From: Patescibacteria group bacterium
GTDB taxonomy: Bacteria; Patescibacteriota; Minisyncoccia; Minisyncoccales; GCA-002788555
Reading direction: 5' to 3'
NCBI GenBank assembly: GCA_043803845.1
Contig: JAZDJT010000006.1
Coordinates: forward strand, 1 to 50,137
Length of the DNA stretch: 50,137 nt
Positions 40,763-45,025 of this stretch are shown one piece after another; the stretch's first letter is position 1, and each line of letters starts with the position of its first letter. Below the pieces are notes generated by a model that did no database searches, was not told where the DNA came from, and saw only the letters and a list, made by a program, of their open reading frames with translations. A program made the translations under genes and the position numbers.

Positions 40763-42412
40763 ATGAGAGAAACAAGATACATTTTTGTTTGTGGAGGAGT
40801 AATGTCTGGGATCGGTAAGGGTATTGCCACTGCTTCTATCGGTAACATCATTCAATCTCGAGGGTTTAATGTAACAGCCATAAAGATTGATCCCTATATC
40901 AACGTTGATGCCGGAACGATGAATCCCATCGAGCACGGAGAGGTTTTTGTCACCGACGACGGCACTGAATGCGACCAGGATATAGGAAATTACGAAAGAT
41001 TTCTAGACAGGGATATTTACGACGATAATTACATCACAACTGGAAGGGTTTATGAGTCGGTCATTAAAAGAGAAAGGGATTTGTGCTATGACGGGAAATG
41101 CGTGGAAGTTGTTCCGGATATTCCTAACGAAGTAATCCGCAGAATAAAAAAAGCCGGCAAAAAAGCTGATGCCGACTTCGTCTTGATAGAAATAGGCGGA
41201 ACGGTTGGTGAATACCAGAACGCTCTTTTCTTGGAGGCCGCCAGAATGATGAAATTGTCCAACCCCAAAAGAGTAATTTTCGTCTTAGTCAGTTATCTTC
41301 CCGTCCCTCATTATCTCGGAGAAATGAAGACAAAGCCCACTCAGACTGCCGTAAGGACATTAAACGCCACCGGTATCCAACCCGATATTATTCTCGCACG
41401 CTCAGAGTATCCAGTTGACGAGAAGAGAAAAGAAAAAATTTCTGTTTTCTGCAATATTCGCAAGGAAGACGTAATCTCCGCTCCCGATATAAAGTCCATT
41501 TACGAAGCCCCTTTAAATTTTGAGAACGAGAATCTGTCTCGAAACATTTTACGAAAATTCGGTTTAAGGGCAAAGAAAGAAGACTTAAAGAGATGGAAAA
41601 AATTGGTTAGCGTGATAAAAAAGCCAAAAAGAAAGGTTAGGATAGGCATCGCCGGAAAATATTTTAGGTCGGGTAAGTTCACCCTAATGGATTCTTATAT
41701 TTCGGTTATCGAAGCTATCAAGCACGCTTGTTATTATTTTCAAGTAGAACCAGAGATTACCTGGCTTGATACGGAAGACTACGAAAGAAATCCCAATCTC
41801 TTAAAAAACATCAAAAAATTTAACGGCATCATCGTGCCGGGCGGTTTTGGCTCTCGAGGAACTGAAGGTAAAATTATGGTTATTAAGACTTGCCGAACCA
41901 AAAAAATTCCTTATTTGGGACTGTGCCTAGGAATGCAATTAGCTGTAGTGGAGTTTGCAAGGTCTGTTTCTGGTCTTAAAGGAGCTAACTCCATAGAGAT
42001 TAATCCCGACACAAGGTATCCGGTGATAGATTTAATGGAGGAACAGAAAAAACTCTTAAACCAGAAGAAATATGGCGGGACGATGAGGCTGGGAGCTTAT
42101 TCTTGCCAAATTTCGCCGAGAACCATAAGTGCAAGAGCTTATGGCCGAAAATTAATCTCAGAGAGACACAGGCATCGCTACGAGTTAAATAACGCATTTA
42201 GGTCAAGACTAGAAAAAGACGGTTTAGTTATGGCTGGTAAAAATCCCAAGAGCGATTTGGTCGAAATCATTGAAATTAAAAATCACCCCTTCTTTGTGGC
42301 AACTCAATTCCATCCCGAATTTAAGTCAAGACCGTTAAAACCGCATCCTTTGTTCAGAGAATTTATTAAAGTTCTTTTATATAAACCGCCCCCTTTCGGG
42401 GGTGGTTTATAG
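40763..42412 (+). CDS. pyrG: CTP synthase
   Basis: Has YIFVCGGVMSGIGKGI, KIDPYINVDAGTM, and a GATase domain with GLCLGMQ and HRHRYE. Confidence 0.97.
   Translation: MRETRYIFVCGGVMSGIGKGIATASIGNIIQSRGFNVTAIKIDPYINVDAGTMNPIEHGEVFVTDDGTECDQDIGNYERFLDRDIYDDNYITTGRVYESVIKRERDLCYDGKCVEVVPDIPNEVIRRIKKAGKKADADFVLIEIGGTVGEYQNALFLEAARMMKLSNPKRVIFVLVSYLPVPHYLGEMKTKPTQTAVRTLNATGIQPDIILARSEYPVDEKRKEKISVFCNIRKEDVISAPDIKSIYEAPLNFENENLSRNILRKFGLRAKKEDLKRWKKLVSVIKKPKRKVRIGIAGKYFRSGKFTLMDSYISVIEAIKHACYYFQVEPEITWLDTEDYERNPNLLKNIKKFNGIIVPGGFGSRGTEGKIMVIKTCRTKKIPYLGLCLGMQLAVVEFARSVSGLKGANSIEINPDTRYPVIDLMEEQKKLLNQKKYGGTMRLGAYSCQISPRTISARAYGRKLISERHRHRYELNNAFRSRLEKDGLVMAGKNPKSDLVEIIEIKNHPFFVATQFHPEFKSRPLKPHPLFREFIKVLLYKPPPFGGGL
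42383..42408. terminator. Hairpin between convergent pyrG and rpmA
   Basis: AAACCGCCCCC-TTTC-GGGGGTGGTTT (11 bp including one GU). It overlaps the last codons of pyrG. Confidence 0.5.
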
Positions 42413-42442
42413 AATTAGGTAAAAGCCTAAAAGACTAAGCGT

Positions 42443-42718
42443 TTAAGAAGCAACACTGACTATTTTTACCTGCTTCTTCTTTCCATCAAAACAGTTCTTT
42501 CTTGTAATTACGAATTTTACGCGACCCTCTTTAAGGGCGTAAAGCGTGTCGTCCTTGCCCTTTTTGACATTATCACCCGCGACAAAATTGGTCCCTCTTT
42601 GCCTAATAATAATATTACCAGGTTCCACAGACTGACCGTCGAAAATCTTGACTCCTAGCCTTTGAGAGTAAGAATCTCTGCCAAGAGATGTGGAACCTTT
42701 TGATTTAGTTTTTGCCAT
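42443..42718 (-). CDS. rpmA: 50S ribosomal protein L27
   Basis: Reads [44 protein letters not shown] chose the second ATG of the ORF. Confidence 0.95.
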
Positions 42719-42852
42719 CATCTCACCCCGACCCCCGTATTAGATACCGTCGGTTTCCAACTCTCTCTTTTCGTCCTGTCTGTCTAACGACAGGCAAGCG
42801 GTAGTTGTTTTTCCACAACGGTGTAAGTGGCGGTAGGGGAATTAAAAATATA
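42719..42852 (-). promoter_or_regulatory. Structured 5' leader of rpmA
   Basis: It is about 134 nt. It has a CCUGUC-GUUAGACA-GACAGG hairpin. A 5' CCCCUACCG segment is complementary to CGGUA...GGGG, which overlaps the G-rich ribosome-binding region. Confidence 0.3.
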
Positions 42853-42858
42853 ATCATT

Positions 42859-42887
42859 ATGATATCAGATATTGAGAAATTTTTCAA
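42859..42887 (-). promoter_or_regulatory. Putative rpmA promoter
   Basis: On the minus strand: TTGAAA (42882-42887), 17 nt, TATCAT (42859-42864). Confidence 0.45.
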
Positions 42888-43006
42888 GGACAACGAAGCG
42901 GATATTATAATCGTAGCCGGAGTCATATTGATTTAGTTAATCAGCTTTGGAGTGGTTTGTTACTGGTCAGCGCTTCAAGCCTTACGCTATTTTATAGGTT
43001 TAGAGA

Positions 43007-43035
43007 TTGACAGATTCCGAGACGTAAAATATAAT
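43007..43035 (+). promoter_or_regulatory. Sigma70-type promoter, exact consensus (U1)
   Basis: TTGACA (43007-43012), 17-nt spacer, TATAAT (43030-43035). Confidence 0.7.
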
Positions 43036-43412
43036 AAAATTAGCACCTGAGAGAATTATTAATCAATTCTCAGCAGAAAAGGCTTACGGTCTCGCTTGAT
43101 AATGTCTTGCAACAATTGACTTTGATCCTTTGAGGATTTTTGATGACAGTAAAACAGTCTCCGATACTTGGAGAATCATTTTTAGGAAGGTTCTCTCCTA
43201 ATGACATTTCTTCTTTGCGACTTAAAGTATCGTTGTAATTCAAAAAATCCTTTCTCCTTACTCTTATTTAGGACGCAAGCCATAAATTCACTTTCGCTAC
43301 ATTGTTAGCGCCTTCTGGACTGATAGGTCTCTGCAGAGAGAATTGTTAATAATTTCTCTCTCTTTTCTTTTTAGAACAAATCGAAAAAGAAATTTTTTGG
43401 TTTCAGTAAAAG

Positions 43413-43445
43413 TTTTTTTGACCGAGAATCACGGTCTTTTATTTT
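43413..43445 (+). repeat. 33-nt terminator module, copy A
   Basis: TTTTTTTGACCGAGAATCaCGGTCTTTTATTTT, which is 32/33 identical to copy B. Confidence 0.85.
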
Positions 43446-43449
43446 TTTT
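43420..43449 (+). terminator. Intrinsic terminator (U1)
   Basis: GACCG-AGAAUCA-CGGUC followed by TTTTATTTTTTTT. Confidence 0.65.
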
Positions 43450-43499
43450 GAACAATTTCCTGTTGAGTTTACCCCGCCCGATCTTGTGGGGGTTTACTA

Positions 43500-43528
43500 T
43501 TGACATTTTACCTATAAAGTAATATAAT
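43500..43528 (+). promoter_or_regulatory. Sigma70-type promoter, exact consensus (U2)
   Basis: TTGACA (43500-43505), 17-nt spacer, TATAAT (43523-43528). Confidence 0.7.
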
Positions 43529-43855
43529 TTAGACAGCTCTAAAGTTCCAAATACGTGGAGAAAGACTTCTGTCTGTCGCAGAAATAGCAAGGTAGCCGGC
43601 AAAAGGGCGGAGACGTGGTTTTAATACAAGGAAGGAAGCCGATTAGGCAGCCCCTCTAAGGAATATGACAACCTTCAGCGCTTTCCTTTAAAAGGAAGAC
43701 GTAAAGGTACTCGAATCCTTAGCGTCGAAAGGCAATGTGTGTCCTAGAAACCACATCTATCGGGTACCCCCTCTCGCACAACGGAAAAGCATTAATCCGC
43801 CTTGCACTGCAGAGAAAGATAGATTAAAAGTCTTTCTCCTTTTTTTTCAACATCC

Positions 43856-43888
43856 TTTTTTTGACCGAGAATCTCGGTCTTTTATTTT
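43856..43888 (+). repeat. 33-nt terminator module, copy B
   Basis: TTTTTTTGACCGAGAATCtCGGTCTTTTATTTT, located 443 nt downstream of copy A. Confidence 0.85.
43863..43888 (+). terminator. Intrinsic terminator (U2)
   Basis: GACCGAG-AAT-CTCGGTC (7 bp) followed by TTTTATTTT. Confidence 0.75.
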
Positions 43889-43954
43889 AGACTAGTGTGG
43901 TAAGACAGTGATTTTTCTTTTTGTACCTCCACATTCGTGATATGATAGAAATCA

Positions 43955-43970
43955 ATGGGCTAACGCCCAT
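43955..43970 (+). other. GC-rich hairpin ATGGGC-TAAC-GCCCAT
   Basis: Perfect 6-bp stem with a 4-nt loop, in an AT-rich spacer. Confidence 0.6.
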
Positions 43971-44054
43971 GGCTTGCGTACCTTCAAAATTTTTCTTTGT
44001 AAAATTTTGAGATTTGTGTATTTTTCTCCGCTACGCTCCGGGCTTGCCTTGTTT

Positions 44055-44074
44055 CTACGGGCTTACGCCCGTAG
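44055..44074 (+). other. GC-rich hairpin CTACGGGC-TTAC-GCCCGTAG
   Basis: Perfect 8-bp stem. It has the same GGGC-UNAC-GCCC core as the hairpin at 43955. Confidence 0.6.
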
Positions 44075-44100
44075 TCTTGGAGCAAGAAAATATAAACATT

Positions 44101-44439
44101 ATGGAAGAACAAGATAATGAAAGTTATAGCCAACCGACGAAATATTTAAAGTTTTTTCTGATATTGATAAGCATTCTTTGCCTTATCTCCTCAACTCTTA
44201 CAGTTAAAAACTCTACCGGATTGACTTTCGCAGAGAATTTATCAACCGGCAAACTCTACATCACCAAGGATGCCTGTTTTTCAATTTGGCTTATCTCCTG
44301 TTTAAGTCTTTTTAGTTTTATCTTGGCGATTTTTAATTTTAGAAGAACGAAAATATTGGTCGTCTTTTTGATAATCGGATTGTTTCTATTGCTGTTTTCT
44401 CAAAACGCTCCGTTAGTAAAAGTTTGCATTCCTGACTAA
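44101..44439 (+). CDS. Hypothetical small membrane protein (about 3 TM)
   Basis: 112 aa from ATG 44101. The upstream TTG-initiated extension (44014) runs through GC-rich hairpins and was discarded. Confidence 0.5.
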   Translation: MEEQDNESYSQPTKYLKFFLILISILCLISSTLTVKNSTGLTFAENLSTGKLYITKDACFSIWLISCLSLFSFILAIFNFRRTKILVVFLIIGLFLLLFSQNAPLVKVCIPD

Positions 44440-44504
44440 AGAAGGCAGTTGGACTATCTAAAAGAAAAATTATAAAATACGGTTTACGTGAAATATAGAA
44501 ATAT

Positions 44505-44870
44505 ATGAAAAAAACTTTCCCTAAATTGAGTTTACCGATAAATCAAAAAAGGGTAAAGCCAAATAGAGACCCGTGCGGACTGATCAGGGAGCTTTATCAT
44601 TCTGCCAATTTAAGTATTGCCCATAATACCATTGTTGACTGCGCCAGGGAACATCTGCACAGCAAGATTGATGAGACTTACTATGTTTTAAAAGGTAAGG
44701 GACAGTTGGTAATAAATAAGAATAAATTAGAGATAAGGGAAGGCGATATTATTCCTGTCGAAAAGAATAACTGGCACTACCTGAAAAAAACTAACGACGA
44801 ACCTCTTGAGGTTTTGGTCATAACTTACCCCCGCTACAACCCGAAAGATTTGTTTTTAACCGGACATTAG
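44505..44870 (+). CDS. Single-domain cupin protein (copy 1)
   Basis: 121 aa with EHLHSKIDETYYVLKGKG (HxH..E..G) and GDIIPVEKNNWHYL (P....H). It is a paralog of 46492-46839. Confidence 0.75.
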   Translation: MKKTFPKLSLPINQKRVKPNRDPCGLIRELYHSANLSIAHNTIVDCAREHLHSKIDETYYVLKGKGQLVINKNKLEIREGDIIPVEKNNWHYLKKTNDEPLEVLVITYPRYNPKDLFLTGH

Positions 44871-44917
44871 ACTATAATGTCCTTAAAGATAAGAGAGTAA
44901 GAAATTACTCTCAAAAT

Positions 44918-44970
44918 CCTCCTCTCGATAACTGACTTATGCCAGCGGTTGAGAGGAGGTCTTTATTTTT
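44918..44970 (+). terminator. Terminator after cupin copy 1
   Basis: CCTCCTCTC ... GAGAGGAGG (9 bp with a long loop) followed by TCTTTATTTTT. Confidence 0.5.
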
Positions 44971-45025
44971 GACAATTTATAAAAAAGGCCCTTTGCTCTT
45001 TTTAGCTCGGGCCCGAGGGGTTATA

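What the first reader, a model, noticed from the sequence alone, without database searches (positions are those of the whole stretch)
43535..43888. U2: 283-nt RNA core closed by a perfect 12-bp helix, with long-range helices, a pseudoknot and a possible pairing switch
The following pairings were made by hand.
- **Closing helix:** 43557-43568 (GGAGAAAGACUU) is perfectly complementary to 43828-43839 (AAGUCUUUCUCC). It is followed by U8 (43840-43847) and then a second terminator.
- **Inner helices near the closure:** 43572-43577 with 43818-43823 (6 bp, one GU), and 43578-43581 with 43807-43810 (GCAG/CUGC).
- **Possible switch:** 43587-43592 pairs with 43800-43805 (GCAAGG/CCUUGC). Mutually exclusively, 43603-43611 pairs with 43796-43803 (AAG-G-GCGGA / UCCGCCUU, 8 bp with one bulged G). 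These are two competing partners for the same CCUU segment.
- **Further helices:** 43612-43621 with 43748-43757 (9 of 10), 43656-43662 with 43716-43722 (CUAAGGA/UCCUUAG), and a local hairpin at 43679-43701.
- **Pseudoknot:** 43706-43713 with 43761-43768 (GGUACUCG/CGGGUACC, one GU) crosses the two preceding long-range helices.
- **Unpaired motifs:** C-rich stretches CCCCUCU (43651-57) and CCCCCUCUC (43767-75) remain unpaired.
- **Coding:** the ATG-initiated frames I traced are under 10 codons.

The AAG-bulge-4bp geometry is reminiscent of RNase P helix P4. However, the bulge is G rather than U, I find no P3 hairpin, and the CR-I and CR-V strings (GGAAAGUCCGG, ACAGAA..CCGGCUUA) are absent. This is therefore either an extremely divergent housekeeping RNA or a new class.
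Basis: partly seen in the sequence, partly recalled or inferred. Interest (0 to 1): 0.75.

Follow-up and report, generated by a model that had tools for sequence, protein, structure and literature searches.

The report
Orphan structured RNA gene in Patescibacteria
The flagged stretch is a real, separately transcribed non-coding RNA gene of about 350 bases that belongs to a small, previously uncatalogued family of folded RNAs found at the same chromosomal spot in a few related ultra-small (CPR/Patescibacteria) bacteria; it is not RNase P, and what it does is still unknown.

Summary
A 12/12 consensus sigma-70 promoter (43500-43528), the perfect 12-bp closing helix, a U8 run and a strong terminator (43863-43879) bound a ~354-nt transcription unit on the + strand.

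No Rfam 15 family matches it, even at E<=10 on the core alone. ARAGORN finds nothing, and no ORF is conserved.

The window is a whole contig of a Parcubacteria-like CPR bacterium. In related metagenomic contigs the same position carries a 345-360-nt RNA, here called X (L081, L083, L096, L097) and Y (L100, L102). That position is immediately after the stop codon of a membrane-anchored Ada_Zn_binding gene. The relatives' RNAs have the same promoter, the same terminator and the same nested helix stack.

A covariance model trained only on X and Y finds one hit in the 50-kb window. It runs exactly from P1 to P1 of U2 (43556-43840, 29.8 bits, E=4e-5). The same model finds nothing else in 1 Mb of other Patescibacteria DNA.

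Comparison supports P1, P2a, P2b, P3 and the 43611-21/43748-58 helix. A weaker P4 would use the "unpaired" C-rich stretch. The proposed switch, the pseudoknot and the RNase P P4 analogy are not supported.

Function is unknown. My best guess is a stable, trans-acting, protein-binding scaffold RNA.

The parts
43500..43528 (+). Sigma-70-type promoter, TTGACA (43500-05), 17-nt spacer, TATAAT (43523-28), 12/12 consensus
   Evidence: It lies at the same distance from the Ada_Zn stop-codon remnant as the X and Y promoters in the relatives.
43535..43888 (+). Predicted primary transcript of U2 (about 354 nt): 5' leader, P1-to-P1 core, U-rich spacer, terminator
   Evidence: Promoter and terminator positions. 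Not tested experimentally.
43535..43556 (+). 5' leader upstream of P1. X and Y carry a related leader with a shared UUAACGU motif; U2 has AAAUACGU
   Evidence: Alignments, plus the L100/L102 sequences. Read directly from the sequence.
43557..43567 (+). P1, 5' strand (pairs with 43829-43839).
   Evidence: P1 is kept in X, Y and U1 with changes on both strands. Aligned as P1 by model R1.
43568..43577 (+). P2a, 5' strand (pairs with 43814-43823; 9 of 10, with a G.A mismatch at 43575/43816)
43578..43581 (+). P2b, 5' strand GCAG (pairs with 43807-43810 CUGC)
   Evidence: X has GGAG/CUCU; Y, U1 and U2 have GCAG/CUGC, so the second pair is flipped G-C to C-G (pair 27-96).
43582..43586 (+). J2/3, 5-nt A/U-rich 5' bulge (AAAUA). 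X has AAAAAA, Y has UUUUU
43587..43592 (+). P3, 5' strand GCAAGG (pairs with 43800-43805 CCUUGC). P3 is 10 bp in X and Y
43599..43607 (+). P4, 5' strand GCAAAAGGG (tentative; pairs with 43769-43777 CCCUCUCGC at 7 of 9 positions)
   Evidence: Homologous helix in X and Y with compensatory changes (pairs 51-58/289-296). Costs only 2.8 kcal/mol relative to the MFE. Model R1 did not align it in U2.
43611..43621 (+). P6, 5' strand AGACGUGGUUU (pairs with 43748-43758, 10 of 11).
   Evidence: Counterparts: X AUACUC(AGCC)/(GGCU)GAGUAU and Y GAUGUUC(AGCC)/(GGCU)GAACAUC, with changes on both strands.
43622..43747 (+). Apical domain (126 nt; 161-164 nt in X and Y). Predicted branched. Only patches are alignable with Y, for example GGCAAUGUGUG against GCCAAAUGUGA
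   Evidence: Its structure is not resolved.
43748..43758 (+). P6, 3' strand
   Evidence: As for the P6 5' strand.
43759..43768 (+). J6/4 junction AUCGGGUACC. Its sequence is conserved (X CUGGUUAAC, Y CUUGGGUAC).
   Evidence: The pseudoknot partner is not conserved.
43769..43777 (+).
43778..43799 (+). J4/3, 22-nt 3' strand of a strongly asymmetric internal loop (23-26 nt in X and Y; begins ACA in all)
43800..43810 (+). P3 3' strand (43800-05), single unpaired A (43806), P2b 3' strand (43807-10)
43811..43813 (+). AGA bulge on the 3' strand between P2b and P2a. Identical in all X, Y, U1 and U2
43814..43839 (+). P2a 3' strand (43814-23), A/U-rich bulge UUAAA (43824-28), P1 3' strand (43829-39)
43840..43888 (+). 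U8 (43840-47), spacer, U7, terminator hairpin GACCGAGAATCTCGGTC (43863-79) and U-tract
   Evidence: Homologous to the X and Y terminator CCGAG-N-CTCGG, which is flanked by T-runs.
43470..43499 (+). Context: remnant of the C-terminus of the Ada_Zn_binding gene (YPARSCGGL against YRPAKNCPGL* in relatives). It fixes U2 as the positional ortholog of X and Y
43007..43445 (+). Context: U1, a second unit lying inside the disrupted Ada_Zn gene. It has a perfect promoter (43007-35) and a near-identical terminator (43420-36). It shares with U2 the P2b/AGA motif (GCAGAAA ... CUGCAGAGA) and a P1-P2a-P3 rod. Possible paralog
   Evidence: Not detected by model R1.

Best explanation
What it is.
U2 is a stand-alone gene for a stable, highly structured non-coding RNA. 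It is read on the + strand from a consensus sigma-70 promoter and ended by an intrinsic terminator.

It is the window's copy of a lineage-restricted RNA family. In related Parcubacteria-like CPR bacteria that family sits immediately downstream of a membrane-anchored Ada_Zn_binding gene.

Shared architecture.
- The 5' and 3' ends pair into a long, interrupted rod: P1, P2a, an invariant 3'-strand AGA bulge, P2b, an A/U-rich 5' bulge, P3, an asymmetric internal loop with a 22-26-nt 3' strand, P4 and P6.
- The rod carries a 126-164-nt apical domain.

How it probably works (inferred, about 0.3 likely).
The RNA acts in trans as an abundant protein-binding scaffold or decoy. The conserved rod, with its AGA bulge and asymmetric loop, would be the docking surface. 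The apical domain would carry lineage-specific contacts. This resembles how 6S/Ms1 RNA or Y RNA use a helix formed by their paired ends.

Shown versus inferred.
- Shown: the gene boundaries, non-coding nature, absence from Rfam, orthology by position, and conservation of the outer helices with compensatory changes.
- Inferred: expression, stability, trans action and any protein partner.
For: Transcription unit:
- Promoter 12/12 consensus and terminator.
- Fold z = -3.6.

Non-coding:
- No ORF is conserved among U2, X and Y, and indels are not multiples of three.

Not a catalogued RNA:
- No Rfam family at gathering thresholds in the window.
- None at E<=10 on the region or the core, none at E<=1 on the whole window.
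- Only chance-level matches to unrelated families at E<=10 for X and Y; nothing at gathering thresholds in L081 and L083.
- No tRNA or tmRNA.

Positional orthology:
- In the relatives the gene order is pyrG, rpmA(-), Ada_Zn, RNA.
- In the window the Ada_Zn C-terminal remnant abuts the U2 promoter.
- The downstream small membrane protein is conserved, 43% identity.
- Promoter and terminator are alignable.

Structure conservation:
- In a helix-only alignment of X81, X83, X97, Y100, Y102, U2 and U1, 96.5% of cells pair.
- 27 of 59 pairs change on both sides.
- 0 of 500 shuffles reach this, and slid partners pair at only 42-52%.

Independent test:
- Covariance model R1 was trained on X and Y only.
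- It gives a single hit in the window at 43556-43840 (+), 29.8 bits, E=4.2e-5, covering the full model length.
- With filters off the hit scores 29.9 bits.
- In 1.01 Mb of other Patescibacteria loci it finds only X and Y members and nothing else at E<=1.

Compatibility:
- The comparative structure costs only 2.8 kcal/mol more than the MFE.
Against: - There is no expression data.
- The family is known from only about five lineages (X81-type, X83, X96/97, Y100/102, U2). These come from metagenomic contigs, so covariation counts rest on few independent events.
- The alignment used for counting was made by hand to fit the helices.
- Primary-sequence searches (nhmmer) do not link U2 to X or Y.
- Global identity of U2 to X is 54% against 48% for shuffles, lower than for neighbouring genes at 65-73%.
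- The neighbouring Ada_Zn gene is a pseudogene and the AsnC-like gene is missing, so the locus could be decaying.
- P4 is weak in U2 (7/9), and model R1 skipped it.
- Nothing in the data identifies a protein partner, and no RNA-binding gene is linked.
Confidence: 0.72

Rival explanations
1. It is the organism's 6S-type (or Ms1-type) RNA. The rod formed by the paired ends, with its internal loop, would mimic open promoter DNA and sequester RNA polymerase. U1 and U2 would be two paralogs, like 6S-1 and 6S-2 of Bacillus.
For: - Ends paired into a long interrupted rod, with sequence diverging fast while helices are kept.
- Very strong promoter.
- A possible second copy next door.
- 6S RNAs are hard to find by sequence, and the papers searched describe none for Patescibacteria.
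Against: - No RF00013 or other 6S-like hit even at E<=10 on the core.
- At 283-350 nt the core is 1.5-2 times the usual 6S size.
- The largest internal loop is strongly asymmetric (4-6 nt against 22-26 nt), not a two-sided bubble.
- The apical part is a large, sequence-conserved, apparently branched domain in X and Y, not a simple terminal stem.
Confidence: 0.12
2. It is an extremely divergent RNase P RNA. CPR bacteria are known to carry RNase P RNAs that fall below Rfam thresholds.
For: - Lui et al. 2021 (PMC8172020) report that 10 of 35 complete CPR genomes needed lowered thresholds, and that helices such as P12-P18 can be missing.
- The size and the series of nested long-range helices are superficially similar.
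- X carries GGGAGGAAAG and GCCGGCUUA strings resembling CR-I and CR-V (read).
- U2 has AAG-bulge-GCGGA/UCCGCCUU.
Against: - No RNase P model hit at E<=10 on U2, X or Y.
- In X the GGGAGGAAAG string is the 5' strand of P1. It covaries with the 3' end: AAAG/CUUU becomes AAGG/CCUU.
- GCCGGCUUA lies mid-molecule and has no AAG-U-CCGG partner.
- The helix at the P4 position varies freely among lineages and has no bulged U.
- There is no P3 hairpin.
- The U2 'P4-like' pairing is absent from X and Y.
- A catalytic core would not tolerate the divergence seen between U2, X and Y.
Confidence: 0.03
3. It is a decaying remnant. The locus is degenerating, and U2 is a no-longer-functional descendant of the X/Y RNA.
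For: - The Ada_Zn gene is split and disrupted.
- The AsnC-like gene is missing.
- U2 is 60-70 nt shorter than X and Y and only 54% identical to X.
- P4 is weakened.
Against: - The promoter is a perfect 12/12 consensus and the terminator is intact.
- P1 is a perfect helix.
- P1, P2a, P2b, P3 and P6 are all kept through changes on both strands.
- The fold is significantly stable.
- Neutral decay would break the helices first.
Confidence: 0.07
4. It is a mobile or repeat element (MITE-like), not an RNA gene. The paired ends would be terminal inverted repeats at the DNA level, and U1 would be a second insertion.
For: - U1 lies inside a disrupted gene. Its ends are 23-nt palindromic repeats (D2).
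- The terminator is duplicated, 32 of 33 identical (D1).
Against: - X and Y sit at one conserved syntenic position in lineages whose pyrG DNA is only 72-80% identical.
- There are no further copies in the 50-kb contig or in 1 Mb of related loci.
- There is no similarity to phage or plasmid records.
- No transposase is nearby.
- The pairing is kept by compensatory change, which indicates selection on RNA.
Confidence: 0.04
5. It is a cis-regulatory leader, a 3' UTR, or a missed small protein gene.
For: It lies between genes. One 30-codon ATG ORF exists at 43735-43827.
Against: - It has its own promoter and its own terminator. The downstream genes differ among lineages (AsnC-like, small Cys-rich ORF, 148-aa protein, membrane protein) and have their own promoters.
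- The upstream gene is dead in the window, yet the unit is intact.
- ORFs are not conserved in frame or position.
Confidence: 0.02

Closest known systems
6S RNA (Rfam RF00013) and Ms1 RNA of Actinobacteria
   Same: - Abundant stand-alone RNAs whose 5' and 3' ends pair into a long interrupted rod.
- Structure is conserved while sequence drifts quickly.
- Paralog pairs occur.
- Ms1 is about 300 nt.
   Different: - No model hit.
- The family here has a one-sided (asymmetric) internal loop instead of a central bubble.
- It has a large, sequence-conserved, apparently branched apical domain.
- No link to RNA polymerase has been shown.
Bacterial RNase P RNA (RF00010/RF00011), including the diverged CPR forms described by Lui et al. 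2021
   Same: - Similar size (about 280-360 nt).
- Paired ends.
- A series of nested long-range helices.
- An A-rich strand before the third long-range helix.
- A single unpaired A before the 3' strand of P2.
   Different: - No CR-I or CR-V motifs.
- No bulged U in the P4-equivalent helix, and that helix is variable.
- No P3 hairpin.
- No model hit at permissive thresholds.
Orphan large structured bacterial ncRNAs (OLE, raiA, ROOL, GOLLD)
   Same: - Long, intricately folded, non-coding and lineage-restricted.
- Found by comparative analysis, with function unknown at discovery.
- OLE is genetically linked to a small membrane protein. Here membrane-protein genes flank the RNA.
   Different: - No sequence or structure similarity to any of these (Rfam 15).
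- Much narrower known distribution.
- The linkage to membrane proteins may be plain synteny.
Y RNAs / YrlA
   Same: A conserved helix formed by the paired 5' and 3' ends with a conserved bulge, a variable remainder, a U-rich 3' end, and tandem paralogs in some bacteria.
   Different: - Y RNAs are about 100-130 nt.
- They carry a specific Ro-binding bulged helix and are encoded next to rsr.
- No rsr/TROVE gene is present in the window, and there is no model hit.

Membership tests
Bacterial RNase P RNA (RF00010/RF00011) | Covariance-model match | tested here: not met
   No hit at gathering thresholds. No hit at E<=10 on an 801-nt region, on the 299-nt core, on X, or on Y.
Bacterial RNase P RNA (RF00010/RF00011) | P4 helix with a universally conserved bulged U and the CR-I / CR-V sequence motifs | tested here: not met
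   - U2: AAAAGGGCGGA has G where U-C is required.
- The pairing is not conserved in X or Y.
- The helix at the P4 position (P3 here) differs among lineages and has no 5'-strand bulge.
- The feature definition is from established knowledge of RNase P.
Bacterial RNase P RNA (RF00010/RF00011) | P3 hairpin between P2 and P4 | tested here: not met
   Only 5-7 unpaired A/U residues lie between P2b and P3 in U2, X and Y.
Bacterial RNase P RNA (RF00010/RF00011) | Single essential copy; no other RNase P in the genome | not testable with these tools
   The window is the whole 50,137-nt contig (P0001). The rest of the genome is not available.
6S RNA (RF00013) | Covariance-model match | tested here: not met
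6S RNA (RF00013) | Closing stem, two-sided central bubble, terminal stem; about 180-200 nt | tested here: inconclusive
   A rod of paired ends is present. The main internal loop is 4-6 nt on one side against 22-26 nt on the other. The core is 283-350 nt and the apical domain appears branched.
6S RNA (RF00013) | Binding to sigma-70 RNA polymerase holoenzyme and templating of product RNA | not testable with these tools
   Needs biochemistry.
tmRNA | tRNA-like domain plus tag reading frame | tested here: not met
   ARAGORN finds none in the window. No Rfam hit.
SRP RNA (small or large) | Domain IV motif / covariance-model match | tested here: not met
   No hit. The GGAAGGAAGC string at 43631-40 resembles 4.5S RNA only at the sequence level and is not in a GNRA-type hairpin.
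New family defined here (X/Y RNAs downstream of Ada_Zn_binding in Parcubacteria-like CPR) | Position: immediately after the Ada_Zn_binding stop codon, with its own near-consensus promoter and a CCGAG-N-CTCGG terminator flanked by T-runs | tested here: met
New family defined here (X/Y RNAs downstream of Ada_Zn_binding in Parcubacteria-like CPR) | Match to a covariance model trained on the other members only | tested here: met
   R1: 43556-43840 (+), 29.8 bits, E=4.2e-5, model positions 1-114 of 114, the only hit in the window. No false hit at E<=1 in 1.01 Mb of control loci.
New family defined here (X/Y RNAs downstream of Ada_Zn_binding in Parcubacteria-like CPR) | P1, P2a, AGA bulge, P2b, A/U bulge and P3 stack; long-range P6 | tested here: met
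New family defined here (X/Y RNAs downstream of Ada_Zn_binding in Parcubacteria-like CPR) | P4 helix (G-rich 5' strand with C-rich 3' strand) | tested here: inconclusive
   7 of 9 positions pair in U2. The energy cost is small. R1 did not align it.
New family defined here (X/Y RNAs downstream of Ada_Zn_binding in Parcubacteria-like CPR) | Apical domain sequence blocks conserved between X and Y | tested here: not met
   Profile HMMs of X+Y or Y alone do not hit U2. Only short patches are alignable.

The most novel reading that the evidence does not exclude
U2, X and Y represent a new class of large (about 280-360 nt) structured RNA specific to a clade of ultra-small, host-dependent CPR bacteria.

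It would be kept under selection in roughly 1-Mb genomes because it is the RNA subunit of an as yet unknown ribonucleoprotein or a ribozyme. That is, a new housekeeping-type RNA rather than a regulator.

The window would then carry a duplicated, diverged second gene (U1).
Probability: 0.2. Interest if true: 0.85.

Novelty: categorically new. Interest (0 to 1): 0.62.

Why it matters
CPR/Patescibacteria make up a large share of bacterial diversity. They have minimal genomes and are almost unstudied at the RNA level.

A 300-nt non-coding gene with a consensus promoter, kept through compensatory changes in several lineages of such streamlined genomes, is very likely doing something important.

Large orphan structured RNAs are rare. 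Past examples (OLE, raiA, ROOL, GOLLD, HEARO/omega RNA) each opened new biology.

This work also gives practical handles:
- exact gene boundaries
- a helix map
- a working covariance model
- a syntenic anchor (the Ada_Zn_binding gene) for finding more members

It also corrects the RNase P lead. That matters because CPR RNase P RNAs really are hard to find.

Tried and rejected
- Rfam at gathering and permissive thresholds on the window, the region, the core, X and Y: nothing relevant.
- ARAGORN: nothing.
- U1 against U2 by MAFFT and local alignment: only the terminator and end motifs are shared. The similarity is not significant by sequence alone.
- nhmmer with U1, U2, X or an X+Y profile against all fetched loci and the window: sequence profiles do not bridge U2 and X/Y.
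- pyrG-anchored loci from 80 GTDB species: pyrG itself is found in all of them, but none of the 80 loci contains the RNA.
- Metagenome scan with a 19-mer of X: found only contigs with L081-type X (two identical to L081, one near-identical), plus two chance hits.
- tblastn of the Ada_Zn and AsnC proteins on the intergenic region: showed that U1 and U2 are not degraded copies of those genes. It did reveal the split Ada_Zn pseudogene.
- Antisense or target search of U1 and U2 against the window: only noise.
- Pseudoknot between J6/4 and the interior: not conserved.
- GGA-motif (CsrA sponge) idea: a hand count gives about 8 GGA against about 5.7 expected from rough base frequencies, so it was dropped.
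- K-turn reading of the AGA bulge: the flanking pairs are Watson-Crick, not tandem G.A, so it was dropped.
A second model including U2, meant to test U1, could not be built because MAFFT misaligned the helices.
- Phage and plasmid collections: no match.
- Literature searches: no description of such an RNA. Only Lui et al. 2021 on diverged CPR RNase P RNA was relevant.
Full report
**1. The observation**

The 12-nt closing helix (43557-68 / 43828-39) is perfect. It is the only perfect inverted repeat of that length in the surrounding 2.1 kb.

- a 12/12 consensus TTGACA-17-TATAAT promoter at 43500-43528, which places the 5' end near 43535
- a strong terminator at 43863-79, after the U8 run

The + strand folds to -105.7 kcal/mol, z = -3.6. 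The reverse strand folds equally well, so orientation rests on the promoter and terminator. Apart from P1, the individual 6-8-bp helices are of a length expected by chance in a 283-nt RNA. Their status therefore depends on comparative evidence.

**2. Not a catalogued RNA, not coding**

- Rfam 15 gives no hit in the whole window at gathering thresholds.
- It gives only noise at E<=10 on 43300-44100.
- It gives nothing at E<=10 on the 299-nt core alone, and nothing relevant at E<=1 on the whole window.
- ARAGORN finds no tRNA or tmRNA.
- The only ORF of at least 25 codons within the predicted transcript is a single 30-codon ATG frame. It has no counterpart in the orthologs.

**3. Where the window comes from**

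The window is an entire 50,137-nt contig. Its CTP synthase is at most 70-71% identical to any GTDB species representative. The best matches are all Patescibacteria (Parcubacteria/Paceibacteria-like) MAGs.

The local gene order is rplI, pyrG, rpmA(-), a 1.4-kb stretch without intact genes, a small membrane protein, then a cupin.

**4. Orthologs**

The closest relatives in the large protein collection have pyrG 82% and 78% identical. Their gene order is pyrG, rpmA(-), Ada_Zn_binding, a ~520-nt gap, an AsnC-like 78-aa gene, and so on.

That gap holds a promoter, a ~345-nt RNA whose ends pair (GGGAGGAAAG/CUUUCCUCCC), a U-run, and a terminator CCGAG-N-CTCGG that is alignable with the U2 terminator. 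I call this RNA X.

Searching with the neighbouring AsnC-like and Ada_Zn proteins gave more copies:
- L096 and L097
- a more distant branch, Y, in L100 and L102

Neither X nor Y matches Rfam.

In the window the Ada_Zn gene is a split pseudogene:
- Residues 4-34 survive at 42859-42951 (E=2e-11).
- The C-terminal YRPAKNCPGL motif survives as YPARSCGGL right in front of the U2 promoter.

The small membrane protein downstream of U2 is the ortholog of the one downstream of X and AsnC in L081 (43% identity). U2 is therefore the positional ortholog of X and Y. The AsnC-like gene is absent in the window.

**5. Shared structure**

With Y as a bridge, the RNAs can be laid side by side. All share the following elements, in order:
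- P1, formed by the two ends
- P2a
- an invariant AGA bulge on the 3' strand
- P2b (GGAG/CUCU in X; GCAG/CUGC in Y, U2 and U1)
- a 5-7-nt A- or U-rich 5' bulge
- P3
- an asymmetric internal loop (4-6 nt on the 5' side, 22-26 nt on the 3' side, beginning ACA)
- P4, a G-rich strand paired with a C-rich strand
- a conserved junction (CUGGUUAAC / CUUGGGUAC / AUCGGGUAC)

I built a helix-only alignment by hand, using N as a gap placeholder and leaving out bulged residues. The pair counts on it were:
- 96.5% of 345 cells form standard pairs.
- 27 of 59 pairs show changes on both strands.
- None of 500 column shuffles reaches these values.
- Sliding the partners by 1-3 columns drops pairing to 42-52%, with at most 4 covarying pairs.

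Caveats: the alignment was fitted to the structure, and the sequences represent only about five lineages.

**6. An independent test**

I trained covariance model R1 on X and Y only:
- X81 was used full length.
- X83, X97, Y100 and Y102 were cut down to P1-P4.
- In each training sequence one or two bulge/junction nucleotides were removed so that MAFFT kept the helices in register.

Results:
- On both strands of the whole window it finds exactly one hit: 43556-43840 (+), 29.8 bits, E=4.2e-5. The hit spans the full model and coincides with U2 from P1 to P1.
- With filters off, the next best hit in 42000-45000 scores 14.3 bits and is a terminator hairpin.
- In 1.01 Mb of other Patescibacteria loci the model finds only the X and Y members (69-83 bits) and nothing else at E<=1.

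This places U2 in the family on grounds that do not depend on my hand alignment. The model did not align P4 in U2.

Forcing P1, P2a, P2b, P3, P4 and P6 on U2 costs only 2.8 kcal/mol relative to the MFE.

**7.

|---|---|
| Closing helix and both inner helices | Supported. The two inner helices are better read as P2a (43568-77/43814-23, 9 of 10) plus P2b, separated by the AGA bulge. |
| GCAAGG/CCUUGC | Supported; it is P3. |
| 43612-21/43748-57 helix | Supported; it is P6. |
| Competing AAG-G-GCGGA/UCCGCCUU pairing ("switch", "P4-like") | Not supported. It has no counterpart in X or Y. Its 5' arm overlaps the 5' strand of the conserved P4. |
| C-rich 43767-75 "unpaired" motif | Its counterpart is the 3' strand of P4 in X and Y. 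In U2 it can pair at 7 of 9 positions. |
| Pseudoknot | Not supported. Its 3' arm is the conserved J6/4 junction, but the best interior partner differs in place and strength in each lineage. It beats shuffles only in U2 and X81. |
| 43656-62/43716-22 helix and the 43679-701 hairpin | Remain single-sequence predictions inside the poorly alignable apical domain. |

**8. RNase P and other housekeeping RNAs**

Lui et al. 2021 (PMC8172020) show that CPR RNase P RNAs can fall below Rfam thresholds, so I examined this lead by hand.

X does contain GGGAGGAAAG and GCCGGCUUA, which recall CR-I and CR-V. However:
- The first string is the 5' strand of P1 and covaries with the 3' end.
- The second lies mid-molecule without an AAG-U-CCGG partner.

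The helix at the topological position of P4 is variable, lacks the universal bulged U and is not preceded by a P3 hairpin.

tmRNA, SRP RNA and 6S RNA models also fail. A 6S/Ms1-like role remains possible on general architecture only.

**9. Evolutionary rate**

| Comparison | pyrG | rplI | rpmA | RNA |
|---|---|---|---|---|
| L081 vs L083 (DNA identity) | 80% | 81% | 76% | 81% |
| Window vs L081 (DNA identity) | 73% | 66% | 65% | 54% |

For the window against L081, shuffled U2 gives 48.4 +/- 1.3%. So U2 has diverged somewhat faster than its neighbours and lost about 60 nt, mostly in the apical domain, while keeping the rod. Together with the perfect promoter, this argues for continued selection rather than decay. 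Decay cannot be excluded.

**10. U1**

Upstream, inside the disrupted Ada_Zn gene, lies a second unit:
- a perfect promoter at 43007-35
- a ~370-nt RNA with z = -3.2
- a terminator identical to that of U2 at 32 of 33 positions

It shares with U2 the motifs GCAGAAA and CUGCAGAGA, the AGA bulge and a P1-P2a-P2b-P3 rod.

A descriptor built from these features picks out only X, U1 and U2 with strong flanking pairing in 1.09 Mb; the Y loci were fetched after this scan. The descriptor was derived from these same sequences.

Model R1 does not detect U1, and its interior is unrelated. Its ends are also 23-nt palindromic direct repeats. I regard U1 as a possible diverged paralog. This is unresolved.

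**11. Mechanism**

The data establish a gene and a conserved architecture, not a function. No RNA-binding or partner gene is linked. The downstream genes vary and have their own promoters, so a cis-regulatory role is unlikely.

My best guess, at about 0.3, is a stable trans-acting protein-binding scaffold or decoy. It would be recognised through the conserved rod (AGA bulge, asymmetric loop).

The most novel reading not excluded is a new ribonucleoprotein or ribozyme RNA specific to this CPR clade.

**12. Verdict**

U2 is a real feature with correctly drawn boundaries. It is a new, narrowly distributed structured RNA family with no relationship to any catalogued family.

The RNase P analogy, the switch and the pseudoknot are not supported.

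Noticed in passing
window 43007-43445 (+): U1: a second promoter-to-terminator unit (perfect TTGACA-17-TATAAT at 43007-35; terminator 43420-36 identical to U2's at 32 of 33 positions). It has a rod-like fold (z = -3.2). It shares with U2 the GCAGAAA / CUGCAGAGA motif and the AGA bulge. Its ends are 23-nt palindromic direct repeats (43049-71, 43336-58). The X+Y covariance model does not detect it.
   Followed up: partly
window 42859-42951 and about 43470-43499 (+): Split pseudogene of the membrane-anchored Ada_Zn_binding protein that is intact in all relatives. The N-terminal 31 residues are followed by a stop. The C-terminal motif remnant lies just before the U2 promoter. U1 occupies the space between the two fragments.
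   Followed up: yes
window 43889-44100, compared with L081 3894-4130: The AsnC_trans_reg-only 78-aa gene that follows the RNA in L081, L083, L096 and L097 is absent from the window, and no remnant is detectable. That protein family is very narrow: only 4 clusters in the 5.8-billion-protein collection at E<=1e-10.
   Followed up: partly
window 42722-42887 (-): rpmA (L27) stands alone on the minus strand, without rplU. It has a promoter-like site (TTGAAA-17-TATCAT with TG) and a ~135-nt leader. No Rfam ribosomal-protein leader matches it.
   Followed up: no
L102 1908-2099 (+): Directly after the Y RNA terminator there is a strong Shine-Dalgarno sequence and a ~60-codon ORF. It encodes a basic N-terminus and a Cys-rich C-terminus (..GSWGCTVNGWLLCPYNFPACKGCGG..). 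It is absent from the otherwise near-identical L100 locus. It may be a small secreted or bacteriocin-like peptide.
   Followed up: no
L096 612-963, compared with L097 591-971: One X variant carries a clean 31-nt deletion inside the apical domain (it removes GCGGUAGGACC..CUUG). This is either an assembly variant or natural evidence that this part of the apical domain is dispensable.
   Followed up: no
window 44897-44973: A long GAGAGGAGG...CCTCCTCTC inverted repeat follows the cupin gene and looks like a bidirectional terminator. It is the second-best (14 bits, chance-level) hit of the family model, purely because of its purine/pyrimidine stems.
   Followed up: partly
L098 1400-3271: The radical SAM gene near the X locus in one relative appears to carry an intein with a LAGLIDADG domain (faint Pfam hits in the precomputed list).
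   Followed up: no
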